Source of the DNA: a virus
Length of the DNA: 64,000 bases
Direction: 5' to 3' (one strand)
IMG/VR virus record: IMGVR_UViG_3300045988_044010
Part shown: piece by piece, positions 2,644 to 64,000 of the stretch
Position numbering within the stretch: the stretch's first letter is position 1
Layout of the letters: each line of letters starts with the position of its first letter
Notes under the pieces: model-generated
Database searches by the model: none
What the model saw: only the letters and a program-made list of their open reading frames with translations
Told to the model about the DNA's origin: nothing
Translations under genes and position numbers: made by a program

Positions 2644-2668
2644 TCGAATTAATTCAATCAATTATGAA

Positions 2669-2707: not shown

Positions 2708-2718
2708 ATTTTAATATT

Positions 2719-3336: not shown

Positions 3337-3340
3337 GAAT

Positions 3341-3553
3341 ATGTGCACATGTGATGAATTAAAATAGTTCCTATATATTGCGTTAGACTATCATGGCAAT
3401 ATTGTAGTGATATCAGATTATGCTAAGTATCCCAATGCATTTGTGGATTCTAAGGATAATCAAATTACTTTTGATGCACCAGATGTTAAAGACTTTATTA
3501 AACCAGAAACAGAATTAATTTTTTAGAATGGAATATACGAAATTATTAGGTAA
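3341..3553 (+). CDS. small hypothetical protein, 70 aa with 2 TAG
   Basis: ATG 3341 to TAA 3551-3553. It overlaps the start of the fibre gene by 26 nt. There is no homology evidence. Confidence 0.35.
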
Positions 3554-17537: not shown

Positions 17538-17662
17538 TGATCCCCAAAACAGAAAAAATATTTAAAGAAGCACTGTTAGAGAAGACCTTACCTCTTGGTA
17601 AAAAACGACATTTTAAAACACTGTATTAGTAGCGCAAGCGAAAATTCGGTATGGGATTTCAG

Positions 17663-18685
17663 ATGAAAAGATATAATAATTTATTTGAACAGATTGTTAG
17701 CTTAGACAATCTACGTCTAGCTGAAAAGAAAGCTAGAAAAAACAAGACTCACAGACCAGAAGTTATTGAGTTCGATAAGAATAAAGAACAGTTACTGTTA
17801 GAGTTATAGAAAATGTTAATTGATGGTACATATGTGACATCTCCGTATTATATCTATAAGATATATGAACCAAAAGAAAGAGAAATCTTTAGGTTGCCAT
17901 ATTATCCAGATAGAATAGTACACCACGCAATAATGAATATATTAGAACCTATATGGGTTTCAACCTTCGTGAAAGGTACATATAGTTGCATTAAGAAACG
18001 TGGTATTCATAAAGCTATGAGAGATGTAAAAGAATCATTAAAGGACATACAAGGAACTCAGTATTGTCTAAAGTTAGATATCAGAAAGTTCTATCCTTCA
18101 ATTGATAATGATATACTCAAACAAGTAATAAGAAGAAAGATAAAGGACGTTAAGTTATTAAATCTATTAGATAGTATAATAGACTCTGCTGAAGGAGTAC
18201 CTATTGGAAATTACTTATCACAATTCTTTGCAAACTTATATTTAACTTATCTAGATCACTATATTAAGGAAGTTCAGAAAGTTAAACACTATTTCAGATA
18301 TGCAGATGATATTGTAATATTACATAGTGATAAGAAATATCTTAGATATCTATATGAAGATATTAAGGATTATTTAGAGAATAAACTTAATTTACATTTC
18401 AAAGATAACTGGCAGATATTTAAAGTAGATTCTAGAGGAATAGATTTTGTAGGATACAGATTGTTTCATACACATATACTTCTTAGAAAGAGAATCAAAC
18501 AAAACTTCTGCAGAAAGATAACAAAACTAAATAAAAAAGATATTGATAAGGATGATTATAAACAAAAAATATGTAGTTATATAGGTTGGATTAAACATTG
18601 TAATGGAAGGAATTTGTTCAGTAAAATGTTGAAATATAAAGAGCTATTAGAATACGTTAACATCCATAGACCAAGTAAAACATAA
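17663..18685 (+). CDS. DGR reverse transcriptase, 340 aa with 1 TAG
   Basis: ATG 17663 is in frame with track ORF 17813..18685, joined through TAG 17807-17809. YADD is at 18299-18310, and the IGNYLSQ motif is typical of DGR-type RTs. An alternative in-frame ATG lies at 17651. Confidence 0.9.
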
Positions 18686-51539: not shown

Positions 51540-52040
51540 TTATATGTCATCACCAAATTCCATATAACTATAATAGTCTTCTTCTGGTATTTCAGCTTCT
51601 ATAGACTCACCAAATCTATAGTGATTATAAAACAAACGCTCTTCTAATTCTGGAACTGGCACGTTGTTCCAAAACCTGTTTATTTCTAATGCTGTTTTCA
51701 AATTATAAGTTTTACCATTTATACGAAGCCTATCAATATCTTTTTTATACTTAGGATTACTAAAACAATAGACAGTATAATGTTTTTTCTTAATAGTTAT
51801 ATAGTGAGTATTATAGATAGTATCTAACTGTCTAAACTTAAGAAATCTGTTTAAAGATTCCTTAGTGTTTACACTACTATCATAAACAAAAAAGACCTTA
51901 TCTTCTAAATAAGGTCTATTCTTATCACTAGTAAACGCATTAACAAAACCACTTTCTACTGTTAAATCTTCCCAAGTAATGTTATCGTTGCATAACGGAG
52001 CTATATATATACTTACATCATTCAAGTTCTTCAGTTCCAT
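51540..52040 (-). CDS. hypothetical protein (166 aa)
   Basis: Intact ORF with a TAA stop. It is the last gene of the leftward module. Confidence 0.7.
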   Translation of the reverse strand: MELKNLNDVSIYIAPLCNDNITWEDLTVESGFVNAFTSDKNRPYLEDKVFFVYDSSVNTKESLNRFLKFRQLDTIYNTHYITIKKKHYTVYCFSNPKYKKDIDRLRINGKTYNLKTALEINRFWNNVPVPELEERLFYNHYRFGESIEAEIPEEDYYSYMEFGDDI

Positions 52041-53004
52041 CTTCTTCGTAATATTTACGAGTATGGTCCCAATTACCTGTCTGATAATGATATGATATTT
52101 CTGTTAATGCTTCTGCTATTAGGTCTTTGCGATCCAACAACTCTTTCTCATTTAACATATTAAAAACACGTACTTCATTATTACCATTACTCTGAATAGC
52201 AATAATATACGCTTCTAAATCATATTCTTCTATATCATAACCTTCTTCCTTGAAATACCAAGTAAGAGCTAGTATATAGAATGCTATCTGTCTATAATAA
52301 TCATATTCTTCTACAGAATGCTTGAAATTATAAACATCAGCAGTTGTTTTTAAGTCAATTAATGTAATCCTTCTATTACAATGGTCAATCTTGACTCTAT
52401 CTAATAGTGACTTACAGGATACATTTGCTTTTTCATATTCCCAATTTATATGAAACTCATTATTACATTCTAAACCGGGCTGATTTGTAAGTAACTCACT
52501 TGCTTTTTTATGATTATCTATGTTTTCCTTAATACGTCTAAGCATAGTTATATCAGCAAATGATATTACTGTTTTGTTAGCTTTTTCAAGTTTTAAGTAT
52601 GAAATATATTCTCCGAACGAATCAACTATCTGTTTAGCTTCTTCTAGTTTTTTCTCATTAGATTTACTATTACTATAAGCTTTATTATAGCTATTAAGCA
52701 ATAATTTATCATTATCTTCTAGAGGATTTACAGCTAATTCTTGAACATATTCTATACATAAAGTTTTTTGTTGACTTACTTTAGGTACTACAAAATCTAA
52801 GATTATATAGTTATCCCAAAATTCGTCTGGTTGAAGTAGGTACATATGTATCATAGTTCCTTTTTCAAGAAACTTTCCACTAATACCTTCTTCTTTACCA
52901 TCAAGCATATCCTTGAGGTAACGAGGTCCTTTCTTCAAGAACCATCCTATTGCTGAATTTGATATTCGCGTGTTATCTTCATAATACGGAATTTCTATTT
53001 TCAT
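52018..53004 (-). CDS. PD-(D/E)XK family exonuclease (328 aa)
   Basis: Intact ORF. The ITLIDLKTT motif, with upstream acidic residues, fits the D...(D/E)xK nuclease signature of RecE/RecB-like phage exonucleases. Confidence 0.65.
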   Translation of the reverse strand: MKIEIPYYEDNTRISNSAIGWFLKKGPRYLKDMLDGKEEGISGKFLEKGTMIHMYLLQPDEFWDNYIILDFVVPKVSQQKTLCIEYVQELAVNPLEDNDKLLLNSYNKAYSNSKSNEKKLEEAKQIVDSFGEYISYLKLEKANKTVISFADITMLRRIKENIDNHKKASELLTNQPGLECNNEFHINWEYEKANVSCKSLLDRVKIDHCNRRITLIDLKTTADVYNFKHSVEEYDYYRQIAFYILALTWYFKEEGYDIEEYDLEAYIIAIQSNGNNEVRVFNMLNEKELLDRKDLIAEALTEISYHYQTGNWDHTRKYYEEDGTEELE

Positions 53005-53903
53005 GCTGCTGTTTTTGTTTCTTCAAATATGTTACTATCTACAATAAAATCTTCTTCTATTGTATTAGTGTCAGTAACAAAGTTTCCTGAAGTATCCCAT
53101 TCAACTTCATCTTCCTTTACAGGAATTTCTGCGCGTAGTTCTTCTGAGTAATTCTGTATGAGATCGCTCAGTTGCTTAGAAAACTCTACAGTTTGTGTTA
53201 AATTGGATATTGTTTGTAATCGTAGAAGAATCTCATCTATGATTTCTTGTCTTTTGTCTTCAGTCATAATATCTATTGTTACTATTTCCAAGTTCTTTTT
53301 AAAATTATACCCATCGTCCAATATAGAACAATTATGTTGTCCTATATGCCCATATGATACACCATCATGCCAATGTCCAAACAAATGATGTTTATATCTT
53401 CCAGAACTATAATAAAATAATTCATTATTATAATTAGGATTATCATGAGTAAGCAGTATATCACATTTAGGTATCTTTTTGAATGGATTATCTTCTACTT
53501 CATCAGTAGGATATTCAAATGCCCATTTACCCGGTTGGTATTCGATAGGTTTTATCCAAGGAGTTCCATAGAAGGTTGTACCTTCATATGTATATGACTC
53601 ATCAATAAGCATTTCTACTTTATTACCAGTCATTCCTCTCATAACCTCTTTAGTTTCTGCCCAAGCTTCTTCGTTATAGAGCTTTTCTAGGTAGAAATCA
53701 TGATTACCCGGAACTACGATTATCTTTTTACAAGGTAATTCATTAGCCCATTTAGTAAATCTTCTAGTCCACCAAGTAGCAGATGCATCCATGGATCTTT
53801 GTTCATTTAATGGAATTATGTCTCCACAAATGCACAAAACATCACATTTAGGAATCCCATTATAGAGATTCCCATGTATATCACTAATTCCACATATTTT
53901 CAT
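53001..53903 (-). CDS. calcineurin-like metallophosphoesterase (300 aa)
   Basis: Motifs GISDIHGN, CGDIIP, VPGNHD and GHWH. Confidence 0.8.
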   Translation of the reverse strand: MKICGISDIHGNLYNGIPKCDVLCICGDIIPLNEQRSMDASATWWTRRFTKWANELPCKKIIVVPGNHDFYLEKLYNEEAWAETKEVMRGMTGNKVEMLIDESYTYEGTTFYGTPWIKPIEYQPGKWAFEYPTDEVEDNPFKKIPKCDILLTHDNPNYNNELFYYSSGRYKHHLFGHWHDGVSYGHIGQHNCSILDDGYNFKKNLEIVTIDIMTEDKRQEIIDEILLRLQTISNLTQTVEFSKQLSDLIQNYSEELRAEIPVKEDEVEWDTSGNFVTDTNTIEEDFIVDSNIFEETKTAA

Positions 53904-53954
53904 ACTGTAAGAATTTAGTAAGTTTATATATAAGTATTGAATAAAATAGTATCA

Positions 53955-54788
53955 TTAGAATAAATCATCATCTATATCATCAGAATTACTTGTTCCTGTC
54001 CTTATTACTCCATTTAAGCTAAGATTCATATCTTTAGCTAATTTATCTAATGGAATATCTTCGAAGAGAACAACTTCATCCAAGAATGCTGAAATATTAT
54101 CAAATGATTTAACTTCCATATGTTCGACGATGAAGTTCACAACTTCATCTATGTTCTTTACTCCTTTATCTTCTGCCATATAGCGTACGAATACAGAATT
54201 AGAATTTGCTTCATATTCTTTGAAATAACGAACACGTGAACAACGATCAAAGAAGTTATCGTCTATTTTATCTGTTTTATTACAGGTCATCAATACCAGT
54301 TTCTTTGACGTAGCTTCTACACCATCTAAGAATCCTAACAGATCCTTAGTTTCCCACCAATAACTATTCTTCTCAATTTCGTCAAACATAACTACTACAG
54401 GAGTAGTAAAATGTTTGAAGAAACTAGTAAGTTTATTAGCAGGATAGTCATTTGCGACTATAATAATAGGTAAATTACTTTCTAAGGCAATACGTTTAGA
54501 GAGCATTGTTTTGCCTGTACCTTTAGTACCAGCAAGCAATATACCTGTTGTCTTTCCAGAATTTTCGGAATTAAAATAATTAAGTACACGCTTGATAAAC
54601 TTATTATCTTCTTCTAGTTCATATAATTTATTTGGCATGTTTAAATCTCCATTCTCTTTGAGATAAGATCTTCCCTGCATTCTATCATACTCTAGATCGT
54701 ATACTTTATTATTTATGAGCTCATAAGAAATACCTTCTAACTTAGGTTTAACTGTAATCTCATTTCCAATCTTAATAAATTCTGCCAT
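53955..54788 (-). CDS. AAA+ ATPase (277 aa)
   Basis: Walker A is LLAGTKGTGKT. Walker B is VVMFDEIE. Confidence 0.8.
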   Translation of the reverse strand: MAEFIKIGNEITVKPKLEGISYELINNKVYDLEYDRMQGRSYLKENGDLNMPNKLYELEEDNKFIKRVLNYFNSENSGKTTGILLAGTKGTGKTMLSKRIALESNLPIIIVANDYPANKLTSFFKHFTTPVVVMFDEIEKNSYWWETKDLLGFLDGVEATSKKLVLMTCNKTDKIDDNFFDRCSRVRYFKEYEANSNSVFVRYMAEDKGVKNIDEVVNFIVEHMEVKSFDNISAFLDEVVLFEDIPLDKLAKDMNLSLNGVIRTGTSNSDDIDDDLF

Positions 54789-54801
54789 AACTGTAATTTT
54801 T

Positions 54802-55194
54802 TTATGTTTTTAACTTGTTGACCAATTCATCAACTTGTTTTTGCGTATGTACTATATAATAATCTATATCTAGATTATTTACATACAAATAATACTTAAA
54901 AAGTTTTTCACGCAAAGCCCATGCATCATTTGGATAGCCTTTGCATTCAATAATAAACTTATCACCTACAAAATCAGGTTTATAAGTTATTGCTCTATAT
55001 TTCTTATCACCAAAAGTAAAAGCTGGAAGCAGTTCGTATCGTTGAGTTTCATACTCAGCTTTGATATTCGACTCTTCCAGCTTCTTATATGTATATGTCT
55101 CAAGTTTGCTTTTAAACTTAATACCATTATACTCATTTGGTGTTGCATTGCGAATTTTGCTTTCGCTAGGTTTATTTCTTTTCCTCTACATCAT
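54802..55194 (-). CDS. DUF1064-like PD-(D/E)XK nuclease (possible Holliday junction resolvase), 130 aa with TAG at codon 3
   Basis: It is not in the ORF track. The minus strand reads ATG ATG TAG AGG..., giving MM[TAG]RKRNKPSESKIRNATPNEYNGIKFKSKLE...ITYKPDFVGDKFIIECKGYPNDAWALREKLFKYY, with TAA at 54802-54804. There is no ATG/GTG/TTG after the TAG. Confidence 0.6.
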
Positions 55195-55327
55195 TAGTAA
55201 TATTAGATTTTCTGGAAATAGTTTTCCTTTTATGTCCAAAGGCAATAAAAAAATTACTATTTACTAATTTGAATGGAAAAGCTAATGCTTTACGCAATCC
55301 TTTGGAAATATAATTAAGTTTGCTCAT
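55172..55327 (-). CDS. small upstream ORF (51 aa)
   Basis: The ATG overlaps the TGA of the upstream phosphoesterase as ATGA. It ends at TAA 55172-55174 and overlaps the start of the DUF1064-like ORF by 23 nt in another frame. Confidence 0.3.
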   Translation of the reverse strand: MSKLNYISKGLRKALAFPFKLVNSNFFIAFGHKRKTISRKSNITNDVEEKK

Positions 55328-55896
55328 TGTTTTATATAGTTTTTTATGAAATTAGCCAATTTATCAATAGATACAAAGTCATAATTTGCAAAACTACTAT
55401 CAATACCAACATCTATACGAATGTGGTCAGGTAATTCTGCTGAGTTTTGTAAATCTACCGATCCATGGCAATGACCGTGAAGCATTATACTACCTTTTTC
55501 AATATGTTCCCAAGAGAACATAGGAAAATGACACATAATTACTTCAATGTCTTTTGGTAATGACTGAAACACAGTTTTCTTAAATGTCATATTCTTTATC
55601 TGAGTAATATGATTGAAGAAACATCTGTGATTATCTGATACTTTATCATGATTTCCTAGTATAAGTACTTTATTTCCATTTAATCTCTGAAATAGTTTTC
55701 GTTTTTCATCTGTTGTTCCAAATGCAAAATCTCCTAGAATATATACAGTATCATGTTTATCAATTCTACTGTTCCACTTTTGTATCATTTTCTCTGTTAC
55801 CTCTTTCATATTATTACCAAATAGTTCTCTCCGTTTAGGATGAAAATCTAGTATTCTATTATGAAAGAAATGCCAATCTGCTGTGAACCATATCAT
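55324..55896 (-). CDS. metallophosphoesterase (190 aa)
   Basis: Motifs TADWHFFH, GDFAFG, LGNHD and HGHCHG. Confidence 0.8.
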   Translation of the reverse strand: MIWFTADWHFFHNRILDFHPKRRELFGNNMKEVTEKMIQKWNSRIDKHDTVYILGDFAFGTTDEKRKLFQRLNGNKVLILGNHDKVSDNHRCFFNHITQIKNMTFKKTVFQSLPKDIEVIMCHFPMFSWEHIEKGSIMLHGHCHGSVDLQNSAELPDHIRIDVGIDSSFANYDFVSIDKLANFIKNYIKQ

Positions 55897-56864
55897 TTGT
55901 TAATATTTTTAGTTAACCAATTTTTCACTTTATCAAATCCATTAGCTTTTATAGCATCAGATACATCTTTTGCTTTAAACTTTTTATGAATTAGCATACC
56001 TTCTAAGCCTGTTTTCTGGCTCATTTTACGGAGATATTTTACTCCGGCTTCATCTCTATCAAACAATATAATAATACGTTTAAAACGCTTCTTAAGTTGT
56101 TCTAGAACTCTATCAGGTATGAATGTAGATTCAGATGAAGGTGAGATAGCTGGTATACCCATCTCGTATAGGCACATAACATCTTTCATACTTTTGGTTA
56201 TAACAAGTATATCTCCTGTTTTAGGTAATTGTTTATAACCCTGAATGTCTAATTCAGTTAAGTTGTTACGCCATTTTGTATATTTATCTGCATATGGTTT
56301 ATATATCTTAAAATGATTATATACCTTATATGCGTACATAGGATTTTCTTCTTTGTAAACGCTTTTTACTATGCCGTTACATAGGTAGTACTTTATACTA
56401 CTTACTCCAAACTTCTTTAATGTTTCTACCTGTATATTAAACTGCTTCCAGTAATTGATGTCAGTATCGGTAAATTCCTGACGTACTACACCAATTACTG
56501 TTTCAGTTGACGGTATATATTGCTTAGAGCTATCGAGATGCGTACTACTAGTAATTTTAAGTTTGTTAACTATATCATTTAGAATATCTGAATAATTAGT
56601 TAAACCTGTTATTAAGGATACGAATTTGATAACATTACCACATTCTCCTGTACCATGATCTTTAAACAACAATTGTTTAGTCTTTCTACTATAGAAACAT
56701 CCAAACGATGGTGTTTTATCTTTTCTCAATGGAGAATTATAGATCATGCCAACTTTAAAATTGCCAATATACGCTGCATATATATCATACTCACTTACTC
56801 TAGATAATATATAATCTAAAGTAATAGTAACTTCTTCTTTTATTTTGTTAGTATCAAAAACCAT
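55893..56864 (-). CDS. DNA primase (Toprim type, 323 aa)
   Basis: The C-terminal half has a Toprim-like ILFDRDEAG motif. It lies in the replication module next to the helicase and polymerase. Confidence 0.7.
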   Translation of the reverse strand: MVFDTNKIKEEVTITLDYILSRVSEYDIYAAYIGNFKVGMIYNSPLRKDKTPSFGCFYSRKTKQLLFKDHGTGECGNVIKFVSLITGLTNYSDILNDIVNKLKITSSTHLDSSKQYIPSTETVIGVVRQEFTDTDINYWKQFNIQVETLKKFGVSSIKYYLCNGIVKSVYKEENPMYAYKVYNHFKIYKPYADKYTKWRNNLTELDIQGYKQLPKTGDILVITKSMKDVMCLYEMGIPAISPSSESTFIPDRVLEQLKKRFKRIIILFDRDEAGVKYLRKMSQKTGLEGMLIHKKFKAKDVSDAIKANGFDKVKNWLTKNINK

Positions 56865-56879
56865 ATGATATATTGTTAG

Positions 56880-56965
56880 TGGCAGTGTAGAGATTTGAAC
56901 TCTACAGTAAAGGAAAGCTGTATCTTACTTTCTTTACACCATGCTCCTGACACTCCGGAACTGCC
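56880..56965 (-). ncRNA. tRNA-like element (acceptor helix plus canonical T-arm, non-canonical core)
   Basis: The minus strand reads GGCAGTT...TAGAG-TTCAAAT-CTCTA-CACTGCC-A. A 6-bp acceptor helix stacks on a 5-bp T stem with a TTCAAAT loop. The 54-nt interior forms a 10-bp bulged helix instead of D and anticodon arms. Its 3' end is 15 nt upstream of the primase ATG. Confidence 0.35.
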
Positions 56966-56971
56966 ATTAAA

Positions 56972-57033
56972 ACGTAGGTTGTGTACTATTTCGTAATCAC
57001 TCATTTTTCATAGTGCGGTACACTAACCTACGT
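56972..57033 (-). ncRNA. long hairpin (15-16 bp stem) in the SSB-primase intergenic region
   Basis: ACGTAGGTTAGTGTAC (57033-57018, minus strand) pairs with GTACACAACCTACGT (56986-56972), with one bulged base. Confidence 0.5.
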
Positions 57034-57082
57034 GTTCGTCGTATTATGCCCGACGTGGCGGCTTTATATAAATCCTAACAGA

Positions 57083-57709
57083 TTAGAAAGGTAGATCGTC
57101 AGACGGAGCTTCCGATTTGACTTCTAGAGGATTAACTTCTACAGTCTCTTTATCGGATACTACTGGTTTAACGAACAAGTCTATACCTGTTATTTCTCGT
57201 ATCATGCTTTCATTTTTGCCTTCTTCATAAAATCCCATCGGGATAATCATAGGCTCAATTGCTGCAAATTTTACATAACTTGGAAGTGTAGTATATCCAT
57301 CTTTATTATAGACAACTTTCACTTTCAACAATGTGTCTTTGTTTGCTGCATTCAGCATAGCAACTACCCAGTTAGTGAATTCTTTATAAGAACTACCAGT
57401 GAAGTTTAATACTTCTTTAGGATAGAAACATCTCAAGATACGATTAATTCTTGTAACCTGATTTGTTGCTTTATTCTGGTTCTGTTCTTCAGTATCTTCT
57501 GCACGTTCCTTAGGTTCCCATTCTGTATGAACAAGTTCCTTGCCGTCTTTCTCGAATCTAAATTCAATGAAATTCTTTCCTGTTGGAGATACTGCAGTCT
57601 TCACTGACGTAAATTTAACATTATCATGAATACCTGCTTCGAGGTATTTAGTATTACTACTATTATTATTTAATGTTACTTGGTTTGCTAAATCTGTACT
57701 ATAAATCAT
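57083..57709 (-). CDS. ssb: single-stranded DNA-binding protein (208 aa)
   Basis: Its C-terminus ends in DDLPF, like the acidic DDDIPF tip of bacterial SSBs. It lies in the replication module. Confidence 0.65.
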   Translation of the reverse strand: MIYSTDLANQVTLNNNSSNTKYLEAGIHDNVKFTSVKTAVSPTGKNFIEFRFEKDGKELVHTEWEPKERAEDTEEQNQNKATNQVTRINRILRCFYPKEVLNFTGSSYKEFTNWVVAMLNAANKDTLLKVKVVYNKDGYTTLPSYVKFAAIEPMIIPMGFYEEGKNESMIREITGIDLFVKPVVSDKETVEVNPLEVKSEAPSDDLPF

Positions 57710-57730
57710 AACTATTTGTTTTGTATTTTT

Positions 57731-58471
57731 TTATTCAGGTAAATATATCTTATTCCAATAAGTAGTGATTTCATTGTTTTCATCACTTTCTGCTACTACG
57801 ATATTCTTTCCTCTTAAATGAGGAGCTCTAGCTTCTATGACAGAGTTATCTCCACCTTCAAAAGAAATATGAGTTTCATTTTTCTTTCTATATACATAGC
57901 CAACAGCATCTGCTTCGCCACATATAATATTTGCTAGTGCACCTACTAGATCAAGAGACATTTCAGACATTTCTTCACCATTCTTATTAATCAACTTATC
58001 TCTAGTATGACCAATAAGAATAAAGTTATCACATAATCCTCGGAACATGTCAATAACTTTTCTTACAGCTTGTCTTATATATAAATAACCAGATCCATTA
58101 GGCAAGGTTCTGAGGTCTGTACCTTCATACTTCTTGCCCATTGGAGTAGCTTTATATAACTGTATAGCAAAGCTCATGCACATCTCTTCCAGTCTTGATG
58201 CATTATCAATAGTAATATACTTATAGGGTTTCTTACCTTCTTTTTTAATTTCTTCTCTTATTGCATTTGCAATCTCGCCTAAATCATTTACTGATCTAGC
58301 TTGAATAGCTAATGCCTCTAAGAATTCTGAACCACCTTCCAAATCGACAATAAGATTATTATCTAATTTAGATGCTAAGGTAGTTTTACCAGACTTTGGT
58401 TTGCCAAACAATATCAAGAATCTAGGATTCTCAATTCTGGCTTTTAATTTCTCTTTTGGTAATACAATCAT
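57731..58471 (-). CDS. AAA_24/Sak4-like RecA-fold ATPase (246 aa)
   Basis: The N-terminal Walker A is ILFGKPKSGKTTLAS, followed by LIVDLEGG. Confidence 0.7.
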   Translation of the reverse strand: MIVLPKEKLKARIENPRFLILFGKPKSGKTTLASKLDNNLIVDLEGGSEFLEALAIQARSVNDLGEIANAIREEIKKEGKKPYKYITIDNASRLEEMCMSFAIQLYKATPMGKKYEGTDLRTLPNGSGYLYIRQAVRKVIDMFRGLCDNFILIGHTRDKLINKNGEEMSEMSLDLVGALANIICGEADAVGYVYRKKNETHISFEGGDNSVIEARAPHLRGKNIVVAESDENNEITTYWNKIYLPE

Positions 58472-58544
58472 AAAGCTAGTTTATTTTATGTATCCCTCTG
58501 ATAAATATCTGATAATTTCTGCTAGTTATGGGATTTATATGTTA

Positions 58545-59060
58545 TTAGAACCAACCGTTATTCTTTACTTTAATAGTAAGATTAATGATTGTCTTCTTTG
58601 TTTCGGGTTTCAAATAGTTCAATGAACCCGGAGCGATTGGAATGATATCGTATCCAATCTGTACGAAATTGTGGAAAATTTTAATCGGTGTACCGTAGAT
58701 ATCCTCGAAATCATAATCCAAATCAAATGGATAATTCTTCTTAGCATATGCATCAAGTGCGTCTAATGCTTTAAAGAACTCTGTTTCAAGGTTATAGTTG
58801 TCGATTTTGTAGCACTTTGAGGCAAGTGGACAATTAGCACAAGTCTTAGGCAACCAGCTTACATTGTGTTTCTTACTCAAACCTAATGTAATAGTATCAC
58901 CTGCACCTGCATATTCGATTCCAAAATTAGATTTCGGATAATCAAATGAACTGTCAATAGTCAGCCACGGATATGCTGTAATAACGCGTTCCATCAACGC
59001 ATCTTTATAAATCTTTGCACTATTTTCTTTCTTCGGTAATGTAAATGTATATGTTTTCAT
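58545..59060 (-). CDS. hypothetical protein (171 aa)
   Basis: Intact ORF with a TAA stop. Confidence 0.7.
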   Translation of the reverse strand: MKTYTFTLPKKENSAKIYKDALMERVITAYPWLTIDSSFDYPKSNFGIEYAGAGDTITLGLSKKHNVSWLPKTCANCPLASKCYKIDNYNLETEFFKALDALDAYAKKNYPFDLDYDFEDIYGTPIKIFHNFVQIGYDIIPIAPGSLNYLKPETKKTIINLTIKVKNNGWF

Positions 59061-59086
59061 AAATTCAGCCTTTTTAATTGTTATTA

Positions 59087-60055
59087 CTAAAACGAAATCT
59101 TCTTTGCTGGTTCTTCATTTCGTATAGTTTCAATTAAATTATTGTATTTCAGATCGTTGTCGAATTCTAATATCGAGCATTGTCCAGCATCTCTATTCTT
59201 TATAAGATGCAAGTAGACTTTGTTATTAACTGGTAAACGATTCGGTCCATACTGTTGGATATTTAGTAACTCTGGTCTGTGAATACAAATAACATAATCG
59301 GATGCATGAAATATTGTATCAGCAGAAGAAATATCACTACGCATTGGATAATGCATAGATGGATTGTTAATTCTATCAGGAGTTTCAATGTTACGATTCA
59401 TCTGTGATAACTGTATTACAGTGGTATTAGGTAACTTTTTTACCTTAATAAACAGTTTCTGTAAATCGGAAATCACTTGCAGTGCTGACTCGCGAGATTG
59501 ACCTTCAACAAGTAAAGTATGGTCAAGTATGACTATAAATTTCTTGCCTTTAGCTTTATTCTCATAGAAGTAGTCTATAGTAGAAGCTATATCTTCAACT
59601 GTACCCGGTGTATCTACATAATATATCGGATATGATTTTATCTGTTGAGAAGTCTCTTCGACTTTGGCTAACGATTCATTATCTAAATCATTGTTAGCAC
59701 TATATAGCTCAGCAGTAGTTAGCCTTAACTTACTGCTTAATTTTCTACCAACCTGCCTAGAACTTAACATCTCAAATGAGAAGTTAAGTACTATAACATC
59801 CTGATCAGAATTTAGATCTATTAAATCATTTTCTAACGTATTAACAAATGATGACTTTCCACTACCTGATATACCCACTATTGTATATACAGTATTCGGT
59901 TCAATACCGCCCATACAGACAGCATTAAACTTATTCCATCTTGTTTTAAGAGACTTTACCTCATGGTTCTTTCTCTTCTTAATATACTCCGTAGCTTCTT
60001 TTGTTGCTGCTGATATATGCTGGAATTGTAGTATTTTAGTAGAGATCTGTTCCAT
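59087..60055 (-). CDS. DnaB-like replicative helicase (322 aa)
   Basis: Walker A is GISGSGKSS. Walker B-like is FIVILDHTLL. It stops at TAG, followed at once by TAA TAA (59081-59086). Confidence 0.8.
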   Translation of the reverse strand: MEQISTKILQFQHISAATKEATEYIKKRKNHEVKSLKTRWNKFNAVCMGGIEPNTVYTIVGISGSGKSSFVNTLENDLIDLNSDQDVIVLNFSFEMLSSRQVGRKLSSKLRLTTAELYSANNDLDNESLAKVEETSQQIKSYPIYYVDTPGTVEDIASTIDYFYENKAKGKKFIVILDHTLLVEGQSRESALQVISDLQKLFIKVKKLPNTTVIQLSQMNRNIETPDRINNPSMHYPMRSDISSADTIFHASDYVICIHRPELLNIQQYGPNRLPVNNKVYLHLIKNRDAGQCSILEFDNDLKYNNLIETIRNEEPAKKISF

Positions 60056-60602
60056 AACTATTTGTCATAATTGGTTCTTCTACTTTCATCTGTTCCTCGT
60101 AAGTCTCCCACTCATGTTGAGTGAGCCATTTCCACATAGTTTTCATATAACCTAATTTGCCGGTAAGCATTTTATTATCTATCTCATACTTAAGACAGTT
60201 ACAGATATGCTGATGCATAGCTTTGCTTTTTCCAACTATTCTATTATATTCCTTCCTACATTTGTTCACATTTGCTCTAAGGAAACCTTTGGTTCCATCA
60301 GGGCGTATAACATAAACTGGAAATAGGTCATAAAATTCATCAAACATAGATTTATCTTCTTTAAGAAGTTCTTCTAGTTCTTTTGTTTTCTTTATGACAG
60401 TAGTATCATCTACTATTTTGGTAGTGATTAGTTTACGAGACTCTAACTCTTGTATCTCTTCTTCATTAACTAGGCTGAGAAGTTTCTGAATGTCTTGATT
60501 GATGGTTTGATTATCACTCAATACAAGTGTTAGGAATACTAATTGATTCATAGATAAATCTGAAATTCTATCTAAGATAGAAGTGTCTATTTCTAAAATC
60601 AT
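60036..60602 (-). CDS. hypothetical protein (possible helicase loader/replication organiser by position, 188 aa)
   Basis: Intact ORF that overlaps the helicase start by 20 nt. Confidence 0.6.
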   Translation of the reverse strand: MILEIDTSILDRISDLSMNQLVFLTLVLSDNQTINQDIQKLLSLVNEEEIQELESRKLITTKIVDDTTVIKKTKELEELLKEDKSMFDEFYDLFPVYVIRPDGTKGFLRANVNKCRKEYNRIVGKSKAMHQHICNCLKYEIDNKMLTGKLGYMKTMWKWLTQHEWETYEEQMKVEEPIMTNSYGTDLY

Positions 60603-60657
60603 ATTCTCATATTATTATATGAGCTATGGTCTCTGAAATATATCTGATAAGCCTCTG

Positions 60658-62607
60658 TTAATCCCATAGGCTCATTTGTAACGGTTTTAATTCTCTGATT
60701 ATCTTATAGGCTTCCATAATGTAATACCTATAATTAATCTTTCTCTCTTCAATTGGTTTATCATCTAAGTAATTTAATAAAGTAACACCAGATGCAGTAA
60801 GCATATTCTGATACTGTTTTTCTGTAGGACATGGAATACTTATATCGAAACGATTAGTATCCTTTTCCTTCCATTTCCACAAGTAAGCACCATTAGTACT
60901 TGCATAGAAACGGTTTGTTCTCTGTTGTTCTTTATTATTATACTCAACATGCCATTGTTTACCAGTCTTTTCAGACATTAGAAAATCTCTAATATCTTTG
61001 CAACCTTTTATAGTTTCTTCTACTGGTACTCCGTTCTTAAAAAAGTTTATTACTGCTTTCGGTATGATCTTCGGAGTTAGACCTTTCCCTAATTTCACAG
61101 TAGTAATAAACATACCCTTCTCTTTTACCTTATCATCTTCAGTAATAGCAAAGTAGTCATTTATAGCATATTGATACATAGCTTTAAAACGTTCTTCCTC
61201 AAGCGTTAGCCTAGTAAGTTGTTCCCATTCTCTGCAAACGTTGTTAACTTTTGAATATACGTCTTTCTTAAGTAAGACAAATAATCCATCAGTATTTGCT
61301 TGGACGATTCGACATCCTAATTGGGTAAGTTTCTCTGCTAGCATTAGTAATAGTAACTGTCCATTTATTCTGATTTGCATTACAGCAAATGGACTATAAC
61401 AGAAATTGTGTTCATTCTGTAAGTTACCAGATAATCCATTGAGAGCAAGCTTTAAGGTTTCATTTTTAACCTTATTGCCATTGTGTTTAGCTTCAATTCG
61501 CTCATCTTTAATTTGTTTATATACTTCTAGGAATTCAGGACCTAAATGTTTAGGATAGAATTCATATTCTATTAGCATACTTGGATATAGAGATGCAACA
61601 TCTATATCAATGAGCATTTCATCTTCTTTCGGAATAATTATTTCAGGTTTATTCACTGAGTGAATTCCTCCGACTCCTACAGAATACTGTAATCCTTCAA
61701 ATACGAATTTATTTTCGTATCCTTTTCTACCTGGAGATACTATTTGACTTTTCATGTCATTTAGTACTCTAGTTAGTATAGGACTATCATATTTAATAAA
61801 AGGTAGTATAACACTATTTAATGGTATTACTGACATAGGAGATCTTAAATCTTTAATATCCCACCATGTTTGACCTGTTTTCTCAAGATACTTCTGAGTC
61901 AAGATCTTCATACCAATGTTTACACCATCTTTACTAAGTACACGTACTCCATATTCATCTTCAATAGCTATTCTTAAGTCGATGTCTTTTTTACATCTAT
62001 TGAGTAATTCCTCAGTAGAATTAACATCATTAATATTATAATCAATCATTGAATCAATTTGATTCTCAGGCAAATCTGCCTGCCAATCAGCAACAAATTC
62101 TTGTACATTCTTGTACTGCATTGTTACTTGAATTTCTTTCAAACCTACTCTTAGCTTATTACTATATAACATAGTAAGAATATCAAAAGAGTCAAAACAA
62201 ATCATATACTTCCACTTTCTCCAAGCAGAATTATCATCCTCACTTGAAGTAGTAATTACTTTACTTAGGTTAAACACAGACCTACAAATGTCTCTATAAC
62301 CTTTATATTTCATTATATTGTAACAATCTATTATATAGTTTATAATAGCATTATCATAATGAAGATTATTATAACCACAAAATAATATGTTAGTATCTAA
62401 CTTAATATCTGTAGTATATAAATCTCCGAAAGTATATTTTGTATTAACTGTATGAAAGAATTCAACTAATTCATCTAATTGATTTCTTCTGCAAGATATT
62501 TCAAATTTATGCAATTCACCTGTTTCTGTATTTTTTACAGTACAATGGAAGACATTGGGGAATACCTCAATATCATATACATAAACAATCTTATCTCGTA
62601 TAATCAT
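60658..62607 (-). CDS. family B DNA polymerase (649 aa)
   Basis: Exo I is YDIEVFPN, Exo II is NNLHYD, Exo III is YNINDV. Motif A is DVASLYPS, motif B is KLALNGLSG, and motif C is ANTDGLFV. Confidence 0.9.
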   Translation of the reverse strand: MIIRDKIVYVYDIEVFPNVFHCTVKNTETGELHKFEISCRRNQLDELVEFFHTVNTKYTFGDLYTTDIKLDTNILFCGYNNLHYDNAIINYIIDCYNIMKYKGYRDICRSVFNLSKVITTSSEDDNSAWRKWKYMICFDSFDILTMLYSNKLRVGLKEIQVTMQYKNVQEFVADWQADLPENQIDSMIDYNINDVNSTEELLNRCKKDIDLRIAIEDEYGVRVLSKDGVNIGMKILTQKYLEKTGQTWWDIKDLRSPMSVIPLNSVILPFIKYDSPILTRVLNDMKSQIVSPGRKGYENKFVFEGLQYSVGVGGIHSVNKPEIIIPKEDEMLIDIDVASLYPSMLIEYEFYPKHLGPEFLEVYKQIKDERIEAKHNGNKVKNETLKLALNGLSGNLQNEHNFCYSPFAVMQIRINGQLLLLMLAEKLTQLGCRIVQANTDGLFVLLKKDVYSKVNNVCREWEQLTRLTLEEERFKAMYQYAINDYFAITEDDKVKEKGMFITTVKLGKGLTPKIIPKAVINFFKNGVPVEETIKGCKDIRDFLMSEKTGKQWHVEYNNKEQQRTNRFYASTNGAYLWKWKEKDTNRFDISIPCPTEKQYQNMLTASGVTLLNYLDDKPIEERKINYRYYIMEAYKIIRELKPLQMSLWD

Positions 62608-62627
62608 AATATAATAATGTTAGTTTG

Positions 62628-62750
62628 AGTCCATGAGAAGATTCGAACTTCTAACTTAGGCATTTATTATCAGGCTCTACAGTCTGTTTATTATGATGCC
62701 AGAGGTCGTTGGAACCCCACTTTTTGTTTTGCCTATTAAACTACATGAAC
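62628..62750 (-). tRNA. tRNA-like gene with an insertion of about 50 nt in the anticodon-arm region (isotype undetermined)
   Basis: The minus strand reads GTTCATG-TA-GTTT-AATAGGCA-AAAC-A...AGAAG-TTCGAAT-CTTCT-CATGGAC-T. It has a 7-bp acceptor stem (one G.U pair), U8, a D arm with GG at positions 18-19, and a canonical T arm. There are 67 nt where 17 are expected. Confidence 0.4.
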
Positions 62751-62815
62751 AACCGGTGTTATTACCGACATTGCAATTAAAGAATCATATAATTATTGTA
62801 TTTTGCTAGCAGATT

Positions 62816-63319
62816 TTAGGCGGCTAGCTTTACCTTTTTCATTTGGTATATCTTAGCTGTACTCTTTCGAGCAAAACCTCGATTTTTCTTTTGTCGATGA
62901 CAATTTGTATGATCAACGGGTTCAGTATTATACGTACGTTTGTACGTTTCTTTGAACGCTACAAGGGAAGCTTTGTGCTTAGCCTTGTCTTCTTTGCTCT
63001 GCTTAGCAGATGCAATTTTGGCTTGTTTCATATGAATAATCATCATATTGAATTTAGCCTGAGCAGTTGTTAACTTATTATCCTTATTGAATTGAGGATA
63101 ATTAGGAGTTTGCAACTTAAAATGTTCTTTTCTAGCTTCTGCTAGTGCTTTTAAGTGAGCTTTTCTTTTAGCTCTCTTCTCCTGTAATTTAGGATCATCC
63201 CACATCGGACATGTGTTCTCTCCCTTTACGTTAGGTTTTCTTCCTGAGATAGCTCTTGCAGCTTTTTTATAAGCATTCTTTGCTTTTACTATAGCTTCTA
63301 TTTGTTCTTTTGTCTTCAT
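62816..63319 (-). CDS. Lys-rich basic protein (167 aa)
   Basis: Intact ORF with a TAA stop. The C-terminus reads KVKLAA. Confidence 0.7.
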   Translation of the reverse strand: MKTKEQIEAIVKAKNAYKKAARAISGRKPNVKGENTCPMWDDPKLQEKRAKRKAHLKALAEARKEHFKLQTPNYPQFNKDNKLTTAQAKFNMMIIHMKQAKIASAKQSKEDKAKHKASLVAFKETYKRTYNTEPVDHTNCHRQKKNRGFARKSTAKIYQMKKVKLAA

Positions 63320-63344
63320 ATCTTGATAATGTTAAAAGTTAAAC

Positions 63345-64000
63345 CTATGCTGCTAACAGCGTTGTCTTAGGATAGTAGATAATAGCATTATCTTTACTAT
63401 CTTTTAGTCGTACTCCAGTAAACGAAGTATCATTTTTGTACTTCTTAATTACTGTAGCTGCTTTCTTTTTTGCATCTTCTCGGCTATTAGCTTTGAAGTA
63501 GTCAGTTTGGAAATCATAATCCTTCATAGGATTATCGTCTGAACGGCGCTGAATCGTACAAGTGAATTGGCGCTCTTCTTCTTTTTCTTTCACGGACAGA
63601 TCTGCAGCCGTGTAACTTGGCTGTATATGCCTCTTAATAAAATCTAGAACCTTATCCTTGTGAGTTACTTCGGATATGTGTTTTCTAGATTCTAACAGTT
63701 CTTTTTTATGCTTTTTCTTAGCATTTATACGAGCTTTAATGTCTTCATCTGTTAACATAAGCGGTTTTGGTTGAACAAACAAGTTGTTTTTTACAGCACG
63801 AGTGAATTTCTTCTTCTCTGCTCTAGTATACTTAACTGTAGGATCATATCCTACTTTTTCAAGTATCTGTTTAATTCGTTCTTTCTTGGCTATCTTAGCA
63901 GCTTTGTTATCTTCCATAGCCTTCTTTGCTACATCAGTCAAATGATCAGCTAGATGTACTTTCTTGCTGTTACTGATGAAACCTATTACTTTCCCATCTT
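63345..64000 (-). CDS. Lys-rich basic protein (5' end probably outside the window)
   Basis: The frame stays open upstream of the track TTG start (63941) to the window edge. It stops at TAG 63345-63347, followed by GTT TAA. The C-terminus reads TTLLAA. Confidence 0.6.
   Translation of the reverse strand, partial: DGKVIGFISNSKKVHLADHLTDVAKKAMEDNKAAKIAKKERIKQILEKVGYDPTVKYTRAEKKKFTRAVKNNLFVQPKPLMLTDEDIKARINAKKKHKKELLESRKHISEVTHKDKVLDFIKRHIQPSYTAADLSVKEKEEERQFTCTIQRRSDDNPMKDYDFQTDYFKANSREDAKKKAATVIKKYKNDTSFTGVRLKDSKDNAIIYYPKTTLLAA

What the first reader, a model, noticed from the sequence alone, without database searches (positions are those of the whole stretch)
62628..62750. tRNA-shaped gene with an insertion of about 50 nt, ending 20 nt upstream of the DNA polymerase start
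On the minus strand several parts are textbook tRNA:
- the acceptor stem (GTTCATG/CATGGAC)
- U8
- the D arm (GTTT-AATAGGCA-AAAC, with GG at positions 18-19)
- the T arm (AGAAG-TTCGAAT-CTTCT)

Between position 26 and the variable loop, however, there are 67 nt instead of 17. Inside that stretch a GGCAT/ATGCC stem encloses a 17-nt hairpin (plus strand 62671-62687, CAGGC-TCTACA-GTCTG). Direct repeats TTATTAT at 62664-62670 and 62688-62694 flank the hairpin, which looks like an insertion with a target duplication.

I could not derive a 7-nt anticodon loop or an anticodon. It may be an intron-containing or disrupted tRNA. In a TAG-recoded phage, a suppressor candidate would be the exciting reading. 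It may instead be a tRNA-like processing signal in the polycistronic early transcript.
Basis: partly seen in the sequence, partly recalled or inferred. Interest (0 to 1): 0.65.

Follow-up and report, generated by a model that had tools for sequence, protein, structure and literature searches.

The report
Non-decoding tRNA-shaped RNA before phage polymerase gene
A gut crAss-like phage carries, 20 bases before its DNA polymerase gene, an RNA with the body of a tRNA but a foreign two-hairpin module where the anticodon arm should be; relatives keep the tRNA body at the same spot while the arm varies or is missing, so it is most likely an RNA-processing signal or scaffold and not a decoder.

Summary
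At 62628-62750 (-) there is a 123-nt element with a textbook acceptor stem, D arm and T arm. Rfam tRNA scores 39.2 bits (cut-off 29), and 65-67 nt sit where the anticodon arm belongs.

It is not an intron-containing tRNA, an amber suppressor, or a transposon insertion.
- All 86 parsed Suoliviridae relatives have a tRNA-shaped element in the same slot, ending 18-22 nt before the polymerase ATG in 85.
- The body covaries: 14 of 17 pairs show compensatory changes, including the tertiary 15-48 pair.
- The anticodon-arm region is absent (8-nt linker), a triloop hairpin, a 12-nt loop, a 56-nt covarying rod, or, in this window, a two-hairpin module.
- Some relatives hold a canonical tRNA there (Arg-UCU, Val-CAC).
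- Relatives carry a separate CUA suppressor tRNA elsewhere.
- The window's module, including the supposed target-site repeats, recurs in a putative small RNA of an unrelated crAss-like phage (cr111_1).

Best reading: a t-element-like processing signal for RNase P and RNase Z that defines the polymerase mRNA 5' end and may release a tRNA-scaffolded small RNA. This is inferred, with no expression data. It is a new variant of a known kind and moderately interesting.

The parts
62628..62750 (-). Whole tRNA-shaped element (123 nt, type A): tRNA body plus a 67-nt replacement of the anticodon arm
   Evidence: Rfam RF00005 39.2 bits, E 9.2e-5 over the whole window. Sequence read. It is the only tRNA-like element in the window.
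62744..62750 (-). Acceptor stem, 5' strand GTTCATG (positions 1-7)
   Evidence: Pairs with 62629-62635 (7 pairs, one U.G). All 7 acceptor pairs show compensatory changes across relatives. In L024, G70 is replaced by A, which turns the U.G pair into U-A.
62726..62741 (-). D arm GTTT-AATAGGCA-AAAC, with A14, G18, G19 and A21
   Evidence: The D stem is 100% paired across 26 variants, and G18, G19 and A14 are invariant.
62653..62725 (-). Position 26, the 67-nt replacement of the anticodon arm, and the 5-nt variable loop (AAGUU, whose last U pairs with A15)
   Evidence: cmscan places 65 nt where 15 model positions belong. The Levitt pair 15-48 covaries across the family (A-U 15, G-C 11).
62702..62718 (-). 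Module hairpin 1: GGGGU-UCCAACG-ACCUC (5-bp stem, 7-nt T-loop-like loop)
   Evidence: Predicted in the fold of the insert. cr111_1 has the identical loop with stem UAGGU/ACCUA; the outer pair changes G-C to U-A, which is compensatory. L024 has a 6-nt loop, so this is not a constrained anticodon loop.
62659..62700 (-). Module hairpin 2: outer stem GGCAU/AUGCC enclosing AUAAUAAA, then CAGAC-UGUAGA-GCCUG, then AUAAUAAA
   Evidence: The inner hairpin is 62671-62686 and the A-rich flanks are 62687-62694 and 62663-62670. All three parts are conserved in cr111_1, where the inner stem CAGGC/GCCUG is perfect.
62636..62652 (-). T arm AGAAG-UUCGAAU-CUUCU
   Evidence: The T loop UUC.A is invariant, and 4 of 5 T-stem pairs show compensatory changes across relatives.
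62628..62635 (-). Acceptor stem, 3' strand CATGGAC, plus discriminator U. No encoded CCA (the next bases are CAA).
   Evidence: Most other tRNAs of these phages also lack an encoded CCA.
62608..62627 (-). 20-nt A/U-rich leader CAAACUAACAUUAUUAUAUU between the discriminator and the DNA polymerase ATG
   Evidence: The discriminator-to-ATG distance is 18-22 nt in 85 of 86 related loci, even though the leader sequences differ. Homology to near-identical polymerase genes begins within 5 nt of the element's 3' end.
60658..62607 (-). DNA polymerase gene (649 aa), first gene of the conserved replication module (polymerase, ScpB-like, DnaB-like helicase)
   Evidence: PHROG 1252, E 4e-148. Helicase: Pfam DnaB_C, E 1e-23. 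Synteny with cr109_1 and cr113_1.

Best explanation
The element is a non-decoding, tRNA-shaped RNA. It belongs to a family that fills a fixed slot immediately upstream of the DNA polymerase gene in Suoliviridae crAss-like phages.

Proposed mechanism:
1. It is transcribed as part of the minus-strand early/replication transcript and folds into the L-shape.
2. The host tRNA-maturation enzymes recognise it through the 12-bp acceptor/T-arm stack and the D-loop/T-loop elbow. These are the parts that are conserved.
3. RNase P cuts at its 5' end (62750). RNase Z cuts after the discriminator (62628).
4. This separates the polymerase/replication-module mRNA from the variable upstream genes. It gives that mRNA a defined, short (about 20 nt), unstructured A/U-rich leader.
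5. It also releases a stable tRNA-scaffolded small RNA.

The anticodon arm is dispensable for this role, so it is free to be lost (type B) or replaced by lineage-specific structured modules. In this phage the replacement is a two-hairpin module also found in a putative small RNA of phage cr111_1.

Shown: the fold, its conservation and covariation, the fixed position and spacing, the loss or replacement of the anticodon arm, and the presence of a separate suppressor tRNA in relatives.

Inferred: transcription, the two cleavages, and any effect on polymerase expression.
For: - tRNA body: Rfam tRNA model scores 39.2 bits here and 34-45 bits for the other types tested (B, B', C, D), always with the anticodon arm treated as a local insertion or deletion.
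- Slot conservation: 86 of 88 loci upstream of homologous polymerases parse as tRNA-shaped elements of six types. The discriminator-to-ATG distance is 18-22 nt in 85 of 86.
- Slot occupants: cr115_1 holds a canonical tRNA-Arg(UCU) there, and cr1_1 and cr55_1 a tRNA-Val(CAC).
- Selection on the body: 96.8% of cells are paired and 14 of 17 pairs have compensatory changes, against at most 49.5% paired in slid controls. The tertiary 15-48 pair switches A-U to G-C. U8, A14, G18, G19 and the UUC.A bases of the T loop (54-56, 58) are invariant.
- Within-type changes preserve structure, for example GAGGG/CCCTC to AAGGG/CCCTT and CATGGAC to CATGAAC.
- The anticodon arm is not needed. Type B and B' (19 loci) have an 8-nt linker. 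Type D has a triloop hairpin. Type E has a 12-nt loop. Type C has a 56-nt rod with its own covariation.
- No CCA is encoded, as in most tRNAs of these phages. This fits RNase Z-type 3' processing.
- A second non-decoding tRNA-like element with a 4-nt loop lies between two other early genes of cr10_1. This fits punctuation of the operon.
- Precedent: plant mitochondrial t-elements direct RNase P and RNase Z cleavage that forms mRNA ends (PMC1920247).
Against: - There are no expression or end-mapping data, so neither cleavage nor a stable small RNA is shown.
- A pure processing signal does not explain why type C keeps a covarying 56-nt arm, or why the window's insert is a module shared with another phage family. 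Those facts point to an additional function for the released RNA.
- Some Suoliviridae have no recognisable element in the slot (cr130_1, cr272_1) or only a T-arm-like hairpin (cr6_1). The element is therefore not indispensable for polymerase expression.
- The presence of RNase Z in the unknown Bacteroidales host was not tested.
- Only two type A sequences exist (the window and L024), so the structure of the insert has almost no covariation support of its own.
Confidence: 0.5

Rival explanations
1. The element is a stand-alone, trans-acting small RNA. The tRNA body is only a scaffold that provides processing, stability and perhaps CCA addition. The replaced arm is the working part, for example a protein-binding or decoy domain aimed at a host or phage factor. 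Any effect on the polymerase mRNA is incidental.
For: - The window's insert is a 54-nt module also present in Steigviridae phage cr111_1 (81.5% identity, blastn E 2e-4). It has an identical 7-nt loop and a compensatory stem change.
- In cr111_1 the module sits inside a putative terminator-ended small RNA. The central part of that RNA is swapped for an unrelated one in sister phage cr108_1.
- The type C arm covaries on its own.
- Element types are shuffled relative to polymerase similarity. L004, with 100% identical polymerase N-terminus, carries type C, not A.
Against: - Type B and B' elements (19 loci) carry no arm at all, yet they are conserved with compensatory changes. The body therefore has a function without cargo.
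- The fixed 18-22 nt spacing to the ATG is unexplained by a purely trans-acting role.
- No target or partner is known.
- Pattern scans found the module in no other IMG/VR contig (only L090, the contig of L024) and in none of the GTDB genomes.
Confidence: 0.2
2. The element is a decaying tRNA pseudogene. A once-functional tRNA gene in this slot has lost its anticodon arm to insertions and deletions and now has no function.
For: - Other Suoliviridae hold canonical tRNAs (Arg-UCU, Val-CAC) in the same slot.
- cr50_1, cr10_1 and cr6_1 hold progressively poorer versions, and cr130_1 and cr272_1 hold none.
- The insert is not more stable than shuffled sequence.
Against: - Decay should hit the acceptor, D and T stems and the tertiary nucleotides as often as the anticodon arm. 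Instead 96.8% of stem cells pair, 14 of 17 pairs show compensatory change, and the 15-48 pair covaries.
- Substitutions within types are confined to loops or preserve pairing.
- The slot and the spacing are kept across subfamilies.
Confidence: 0.12
3. The element is a decoding tRNA that needs removal of an intron or tolerates an odd arm. One version is the missing amber suppressor of this TAG-recoded phage. Another is a class II tRNA-Leu(CAA), with hairpin 1 as the anticodon arm and hairpin 2 as a long variable arm.
For: - The phage is TAG-recoded in its late genes, and no other tRNA lies in the window.
- Hairpin 1 has a 5-bp stem and a 7-nt loop UCCAACG that contains CAA.
- ARAGORN in intron mode returns a model.
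Against: - No CUA sits in any 7-nt loop.
- Position 33 of hairpin 1 is C, 7 nt rather than 1 separate it from the D stem, and the only other type A copy has a 6-nt loop.
- The ARAGORN model has a 3-of-5 anticodon stem and an intron at 32/33. Closely related type C variants get different anticodons.
- 65 nt cannot hold a group I intron, and Rfam finds none.
- Relatives carry a separate canonical CUA tRNA upstream of the terminase, a region that lies outside this window.
- Type B has no arm.
Confidence: 0.03
4. The element is a DNA-level feature, not an RNA. It would be a recombination hotspot or module boundary, a replication origin or a promoter, or a small mobile element that inserted into a tRNA gene and left a TTATTAT duplication.
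For: - Homology between the window and phages with 97% identical polymerase genes starts within 5 nt of the element's 3' end, so it lies at a mosaic boundary.
- Direct 8-nt repeats flank the inner hairpin.
Against: - Compensatory base changes in four helices and a tertiary pair indicate selection on an RNA fold.
- Cumulative GC skew shows no inflection at the element; the only switch is at about 51.4 kb.
- There is no second copy of the hairpin unit in the window.
- The flanking repeats are conserved in cr111_1 as part of the module.
Confidence: 0.05

Closest known systems
Plant mitochondrial t-elements: tRNA-like structures that act as RNase P and RNase Z processing signals at mRNA ends (Forner et al. 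2007, PMC1920247)
   Same: - Both have a non-canonical cloverleaf with a well-kept T arm and acceptor stem.
- Neither decodes.
- Both lie directly next to protein-coding genes inside polycistronic transcripts. The cox1 t-element, like this one, sits upstream of the mature mRNA 5' end.
   Different: - This one is in a bacteriophage of gut Bacteroidales, not an organelle.
- Its D arm and all tertiary elbow contacts are fully conserved.
- The anticodon-arm position carries lineage-specific structured modules.
- Cleavage is not demonstrated here.
mascRNA and the MALAT1/MEN-beta tRNA-like elements of vertebrates (58-nt tRNA-like RNA processed from the MALAT1 3' end; bioRxiv 10.64898/2026.01.19.700226 abstract; processing by RNase P and RNase Z is from my own knowledge)
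   Same: - Both are tRNA-like folds used for processing a longer transcript and releasing a small tRNA-like RNA.
- Both have a poorly conserved anticodon region.
- Type B relatives are also 58 nt.
   Different: - mascRNA is eukaryotic and nuclear, and it defines a 3' end rather than an mRNA 5' end.
- There is no sequence relationship.
Canonical phage tRNA genes in the same slot: cr115_1 tRNA-Arg(UCU), and cr1_1 and cr55_1 tRNA-Val(CAC)
   Same: They share the genomic slot, the strand, the 17-19 nt distance to the polymerase ATG, and the lack of an encoded CCA. They are probably the ancestral state.
   Different: Those have a 5-bp anticodon stem and a 7-nt loop with U33 and a readable anticodon. 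The window's element has neither.
Engineered 'tRNA scaffolds' for expressing structured RNAs by replacing the anticodon arm (Ponchon and Dardel approach; recalled from my own knowledge, not checked here)
   Same: The architecture is the same: an intact acceptor, D and T body, with a foreign structured RNA grafted at the anticodon-stem position. The scaffold relies on the cell's tRNA processing and on tRNA stability.
   Different: Those are artificial. A natural equivalent has not, as far as my literature searches show, been described for phages.
Bacterial Y-RNA-like YrlA and viral tRNA-like RNAs such as the gammaherpesvirus 68 tRNA-miRNA transcripts (recalled from my own knowledge)
   Same: Both are non-decoding tRNA mimics that host tRNA enzymes recognise. 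In the herpesvirus case the tRNA-like part directs RNase Z processing of what lies downstream.
   Different: - In YrlA the RNA ends lie at the anticodon-stem side and the acceptor is closed by a loop.
- The herpesvirus RNAs are pol III units.
- There is no Rfam match to any of these families here.

Membership tests
tRNA (Rfam RF00005), structural membership | Covariance-model score above the curated gathering score | tested here: met
   39.2 bits against 29, but only with the anticodon arm skipped as a 65-nt local insertion.
tRNA (decoding) | 5-bp anticodon stem closing a 7-nt loop with U33 and a readable anticodon, 1 nt after the D stem | tested here: not met
   No such arm is present. Hairpin 1 has C33, lies 7 nt from the D stem, and has a 6-nt loop in L024. 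ARAGORN without introns finds nothing.
tRNA (decoding) | Acceptor stem, D arm with G18 and G19, T arm with the UUCRA loop, U8, A14, and a 15-48 pair | tested here: met
Intron-containing tRNA (bacterial/phage group I intron, or archaeal bulge-helix-bulge intron) | Group I catalytic core (over 200 nt), or a bulge-helix-bulge motif at position 37/38 that leaves a canonical anticodon loop after removal | tested here: not met
   - The insert is 65-67 nt.
- Rfam reports no intron family at E up to 10.
- The ARAGORN intron model puts the intron at 32/33 with a poor stem.
- The inferred anticodons are inconsistent among close relatives.
Amber suppressor tRNA of TAG-recoded phages | CUA anticodon in a canonical loop, and being the only candidate suppressor in the lineage | tested here: not met
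   No CUA sits in a 7-nt loop. Relatives with B, B' and C-type elements carry a separate tRNA(CUA) upstream of the terminase.
t-element / tRNA-like processing signal | tRNA-like fold with conserved acceptor and T arms but a non-functional anticodon region | tested here: met
t-element / tRNA-like processing signal | Its ends coincide with mapped mRNA and small-RNA ends, and RNase P and RNase Z cleave it | not testable with these tools
   No transcriptome or biochemical data are available. Only the fixed 18-22 nt spacing to the ATG is seen.
tmRNA | tRNA-like domain without a D stem, plus a tag reading frame and pseudoknots | tested here: not met
   ARAGORN, which includes a tmRNA search, and Rfam give no tmRNA hit. 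A normal D arm is present.
Small mobile insertion with target-site duplication | Further copies elsewhere, with repeats that are created by insertion and are not part of the inserted unit | tested here: not met
   The unit is single-copy in the window at up to 3 mismatches. Both A-rich flanks are conserved together with the hairpins in cr111_1.

The most novel reading that the evidence does not exclude
crAss-like phages may use natural 'tRNA scaffolds'. A tRNA body, cut out by the host's tRNA-maturation enzymes, would carry exchangeable structured RNA modules at the anticodon-arm position.

The window's two-hairpin module has a T-loop-like UCCAACG hairpin and a hairpin flanked by A-rich strands. 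It would be one such cargo, shared by recombination with a differently scaffolded small RNA of a Steigviridae phage. It would act in trans, for example as a decoy or binding site for a host or phage factor.
Probability: 0.2. Interest if true: 0.8.

Novelty: new variant of a known kind. Interest (0 to 1): 0.6.

Why it matters
- Suoliviridae are among the most abundant phages of the human gut, and almost nothing is known about how their early transcripts are processed.
- A conserved, non-decoding tRNA-shaped element at the head of the replication module would be the first bacteriophage counterpart of organellar t-elements that my four literature searches could find. It gives a testable handle on polymerase mRNA formation.
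- It has a practical consequence for annotation. Such elements are missed by ARAGORN and by default Rfam filters, or mis-called (tRNA-His with anticodon AUG in cr53_1). They should not be counted as decoders or as candidate suppressors in recoded phages.
- The arm replacements suggest that phages may use the tRNA body as a carrier for other RNA domains. One of these replacements is shared with a putative small RNA of another phage family. That idea is otherwise known only from RNA engineering.

Tried and rejected
- Intron models. ARAGORN with intron options gave a weak Ser(AGA) model here and inconsistent isotypes among related variants. Rejected.
- Suppressor reading. I looked for CUA in the variable arms of all types by eye on the sequences. 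There was no consistent occurrence, and a separate suppressor exists in relatives. Rejected.
- Anti-leader pairing. The insert's AUCAUAAUA is 9/9 complementary to UAUUAUGAU across the polymerase start codon. However, RNAduplex energies of arm against leader are no better than dinucleotide shuffles in any type (z from -0.9 to +1.9). Rejected as chance in A/U-rich sequence.
- Recurrent UGUAR (a Tyr-like anticodon relic) in arms of types A, C, D and E. The structural contexts differ, so I did not pursue it and it carries no weight.
- Replication origin. There is no GC-skew inflection at the element.
- Terminator or promoter scans gave nothing convincing on the minus strand.
- Own covariance model of the body (R1). 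It finds no second copy in the window, and it splits this element into two partial hits because of the large insert.
- Metagenome pattern scan.
- 14-mer scan for hairpin 1 in IMG/VR. All 119 returned hits lack the rest of the module, so they are chance matches.
- More specific module patterns found only the L024 contig in IMG/VR and nothing in GTDB genomes.
- Type C arm against phage records. It matched only a same-slot relative, cr56_1.

Full report
**What is there**

On the minus strand, 62750 to 62628, lies a 123-nt sequence. Its parts, in order:
- acceptor stem GTTCATG, then TA
- D arm GTTT-AATAGGCA-AAAC
- 73 nt (position 26, the insert and the variable loop)
- T arm AGAAG-TTCGAAT-CTTCT
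- acceptor 3' strand CATGGAC and discriminator T

Twenty bases later the 649-aa ORF 60658-62607 starts. That ORF is a DNA polymerase (PHROG 1252, E 4e-148) and is followed by a DnaB-like helicase.

ARAGORN in its normal mode and the default-filter Rfam scan report nothing. With permissive filters the Rfam tRNA model matches 62628-62750 at 39.2 bits against a gathering score of 29. The E-value is 5.8e-7 for the 401-nt region and 9.2e-5 for the whole window. The model skips 65 nt where 15 positions of the anticodon arm belong. It is the only tRNA-like element in the window.

- The inner hairpin is 16 nt (62671-62686).
- It has an A.C mismatch on the transcribed strand.
- The direct repeats are 8 nt.

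**Context**

The window is a crAss-like phage of the family Suoliviridae, subfamily Loutivirinae. It is closest to cr109_1 and cr113_1 (84-87% nucleotide identity over the polymerase region).

The plus-strand late genes are TAG-recoded. Stop-to-stop ORFs of at least 150 aa on that strand grow from 26.7 to 51.5 kb when TAG is read as sense. The long minus-strand replication ORFs from 52018 to 62619, including the polymerase, contain at most one in-frame TAG.

**The decisive evidence is comparative**

I collected 80 IMG/VR loci and 13 GenBank phage records that encode homologues of the polymerase N-terminus. Of 88 loci analysed together, 86 parse as a tRNA-shaped element in the same slot. The discriminator lies 18-22 nt before the ATG in 85 of those 86.

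The elements fall into six types. They share the tRNA body but differ completely where the anticodon arm should be:

| Type | Loci | Region replacing the anticodon arm |
|---|---|---|
| A | window and one contig (L024) | 67-nt insert |
| B, B' | 19, including cr109_1 and cr113_1 | no arm; an 8-nt linker joins D stem to T stem (58-59 nt in all) |
| C | 20 | 56-nt rod capped by a UUCG hairpin |
| D | 32, including cr53_1 (annotated tRNA-His, anticodon AUG) | 5-bp hairpin with a 3-nt loop |
| E | 13, including cr4_1 and cr114_1 | stem with a conserved 12-nt loop |

Other subfamilies hold other occupants:
- canonical tRNAs: Arg-UCU in cr115_1, Val-CAC in cr1_1 and cr55_1
- poor versions: cr50_1, cr10_1, cr6_1
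- nothing recognisable: cr130_1, cr272_1

The Rfam tRNA model scores the other types tested (B, B', C, D) at 34-45 bits, each time skipping the arm.

**The body is under selection as an RNA fold**

I aligned 26 distinct bodies with the arm region excised (A1) and counted pairs.
- 96.8% of cells pair.
- 14 of 17 pairs show changes on both sides.
- No shuffle reaches the observed covariation score.
- Sliding the 3' partners by 1-3 columns drops pairing to 27-50%.
- The tertiary Levitt pair 15-48 switches cleanly between A-U (15 sequences) and G-C (11).
- U8, A14, G18, G19 and the UUC.A bases of the T loop are invariant.

One caveat applies. Different genuine tRNAs would also covary, so the informative point is what is kept and what is lost. 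Everything that builds the acceptor/T-arm stack and the elbow is kept. Within types, substitutions are loop changes or preserve pairing. The part that decodes is lost or replaced.

**Why the other readings fail**

*Intron.* 65 nt cannot hold a group I intron, and no Rfam intron or ribozyme family matches. ARAGORN with introns allowed returns a Ser(AGA) model with a 3-of-5 anticodon stem and an intron at 32/33. It gives Ile, His and Asn for closely related type C variants.

*Suppressor.* No CUA lies in a 7-nt loop of the element. Close relatives carry a separate tRNA with anticodon CUA just upstream of the terminase (cr109_1 11608-11687). By synteny that region lies outside this window. The same suppressor occurs in 31 IMG/VR contigs. 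Six of those also carry B, B' or C-type elements before their polymerase.

*Class II tRNA-Leu(CAA).* Hairpin 1 would be the anticodon arm in this reading. It has C33, lies 7 nt from the D stem, and has a 6-nt loop in L024.

*Target-site duplication.* The unit is single-copy in the window. The A-rich repeats turn out to belong to a conserved module, described next.

**The insert itself**

Folded alone, it forms two hairpins:
- hairpin 1: GGGGU-UCCAACG-ACCUC
- hairpin 2: GGCAU...AUGCC, enclosing AUAAUAAA, then CAGAC-UGUAGA-GCCUG, then AUAAUAAA

It is not more stable than shuffles (z = -0.9).

Unexpectedly, 54 nt of the insert match an unannotated intergenic region of cr111_1, a phage of a different family (Steigviridae), at 81.5% identity (E 2e-4 against 2.3 Gb).
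- Hairpin 1 has the same 7-nt loop. Its stem differs by a compensatory G-C to U-A change.
- Both A-rich strands are conserved.
- The inner hairpin of hairpin 2 is conserved, and its stem is perfect in cr111_1.

In cr111_1 the module sits inside a closing stem of a putative small RNA of about 190 nt that ends in an intrinsic terminator. In the sister phage cr108_1 the flanks and the terminator are conserved, but the central module is a different one. The insert is therefore most likely a transferable structured RNA domain grafted into the tRNA body.

The loop UCCAACG fits the T-loop motif (U..RA). That is my structural inference and is not tested. Pattern scans found no further copies, and Rfam knows no such family.

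**Mosaicism**

Phages whose polymerase N-terminus is 98-100% identical to the window's carry type C, not type A (L004-L009). Nucleotide homology to them begins within 5 nt of the element's 3' end. The element thus marks the boundary between the conserved replication module and a variable early region.

**Mechanism proposed**

The conserved parts are exactly the determinants used by RNase P, RNase Z and the CCA-adding enzyme: the 12-bp acceptor/T stack and the elbow. This is established knowledge of tRNA maturation, not tested here.
- No CCA is encoded, as in most tRNAs of these phages. That is the substrate type of RNase Z.
- The distance to the ATG is held at 18-22 nt, although the leader sequences differ.

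I therefore propose that the element is a t-element-like punctuation signal. RNase P cuts at 62750 and RNase Z after 62628. This frees the polymerase mRNA with a short A/U-rich leader and releases a tRNA-scaffolded small RNA. Plant mitochondrial t-elements are the documented precedent (PMC1920247), and mascRNA is another.

A second non-decoding tRNA-like element between other early genes of cr10_1 fits a general punctuation role.

The covarying type C arm and the shared type A module suggest that the released RNA may also have a function of its own. I rate that as the main rival, or as an addition to the proposed role.

**Novelty**

Four full-text literature searches found no description of such elements in crAss-like or other phages. 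One preprint mentions only low-scoring 'tRNA-like' pseudogenes.

I classify the finding as a new variant of a known kind: tRNA-like processing elements. The 'natural tRNA scaffold' idea is a more novel possibility that the evidence does not exclude.

Noticed in passing
L250 (cr111_1, NC_055880.1) 2430-2800; L370 (cr108_1) 590-950: An unannotated intergenic region holds two tandem putative small-RNA units.
- Each starts near TTCAG(A)GGCTTAAGT and ends in an intrinsic terminator (CTCAATGACTT.GTAA.AGAG... followed by TTTTT).
- The first unit's central part is the window's module in cr111_1. In cr108_1 it is an unrelated stem-closed module.
   Followed up: partly
window 17584-17666 (+): Sub-threshold Rfam match to RT-17 RNA, a motif associated with reverse-transcriptase genes. 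It scores 35.4 bits against a gathering score of 40.4 (E 0.005), inside the TAG-recoded late region.
   Followed up: no
window 62805-62828 (-): A hairpin GCTAGC-CGCCUAAAAUCU-GCTAGC encloses the stop codon (62816-62818) of the upstream 167-aa ORF. In relatives the stem covaries (GCAGGC/GCCTGC, GCAAGC/GCTTGC) while the loop ..GCCTAAA.. is kept. No U tract follows it.
   Followed up: partly
window 62754-62767 (-): A small hairpin CGGU-AAUAAC-ACCG lies 3 nt before the element's 5' end. L024 has CGGC...GCCG, a compensatory change. Types B and B' have other small hairpins at the same place, followed by GG(U/A)(U/A).
   Followed up: no
window 1-51461 (+) versus 51540-64000 (-): TAG recoding is confined to the plus-strand late genes, with up to 49 in-frame TAG in one 4544-codon frame. 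The long minus-strand replication ORFs (52018-62619, including the polymerase) have at most one. The GC-skew sign switches at about 51.4 kb, where the two transcription directions converge.
   Followed up: partly
L212 (cr109_1) 11608-11687 (+); L217, L218, L226, L232, L233, L243: An amber suppressor tRNA (anticodon CUA, 78-80 nt with an extended variable region, CCA encoded in most copies) lies directly upstream of the homing endonuclease/terminase block. Often a tRNA-Met lies about 800 nt away.
   Followed up: partly
L086 (cr10_1) 4779-4846 (-): A second non-decoding tRNA-like element lies between two early genes. It has normal acceptor, D and T arms, but its anticodon hairpin is UAACA-UUUU-UGUUA with a 4-nt loop. 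ARAGORN calls it tRNA-??? (tt).
   Followed up: partly
L249 (cr272_1) about 3251-3334 (-); L087 (cr6_1) 3899-3972 (-): In subfamilies without a recognisable tRNA-like element, the slot before the polymerase still holds structure.
- cr272_1: a closing stem GCGTGT/ACACGC around two hairpins, one of them GGGGG-AUUAUAA-CCCCC.
- cr6_1: a T-arm-like hairpin AUGGG-UUCGAUU-CCCAU.
   Followed up: no
L001 (cr53_1) 1561-4373; L088 (cr118_1) 1745-4032: In these relatives the polymerase gene is annotated in two pieces. They are separated by an HNH endonuclease gene in cr53_1 and by a small ORF in cr118_1, which suggests an intron or intein. In the window it is one uninterrupted ORF.
   Followed up: no
L091 (IMGVR_UViG_3300024518_004078) 11750-11830 (+): An unrelated viral contig carries the same D arm (TGTAGTTTAATAGGCAAAAC) in another oddly built tRNA-like sequence with a GGTTCGACTCC T arm.
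   Followed up: no
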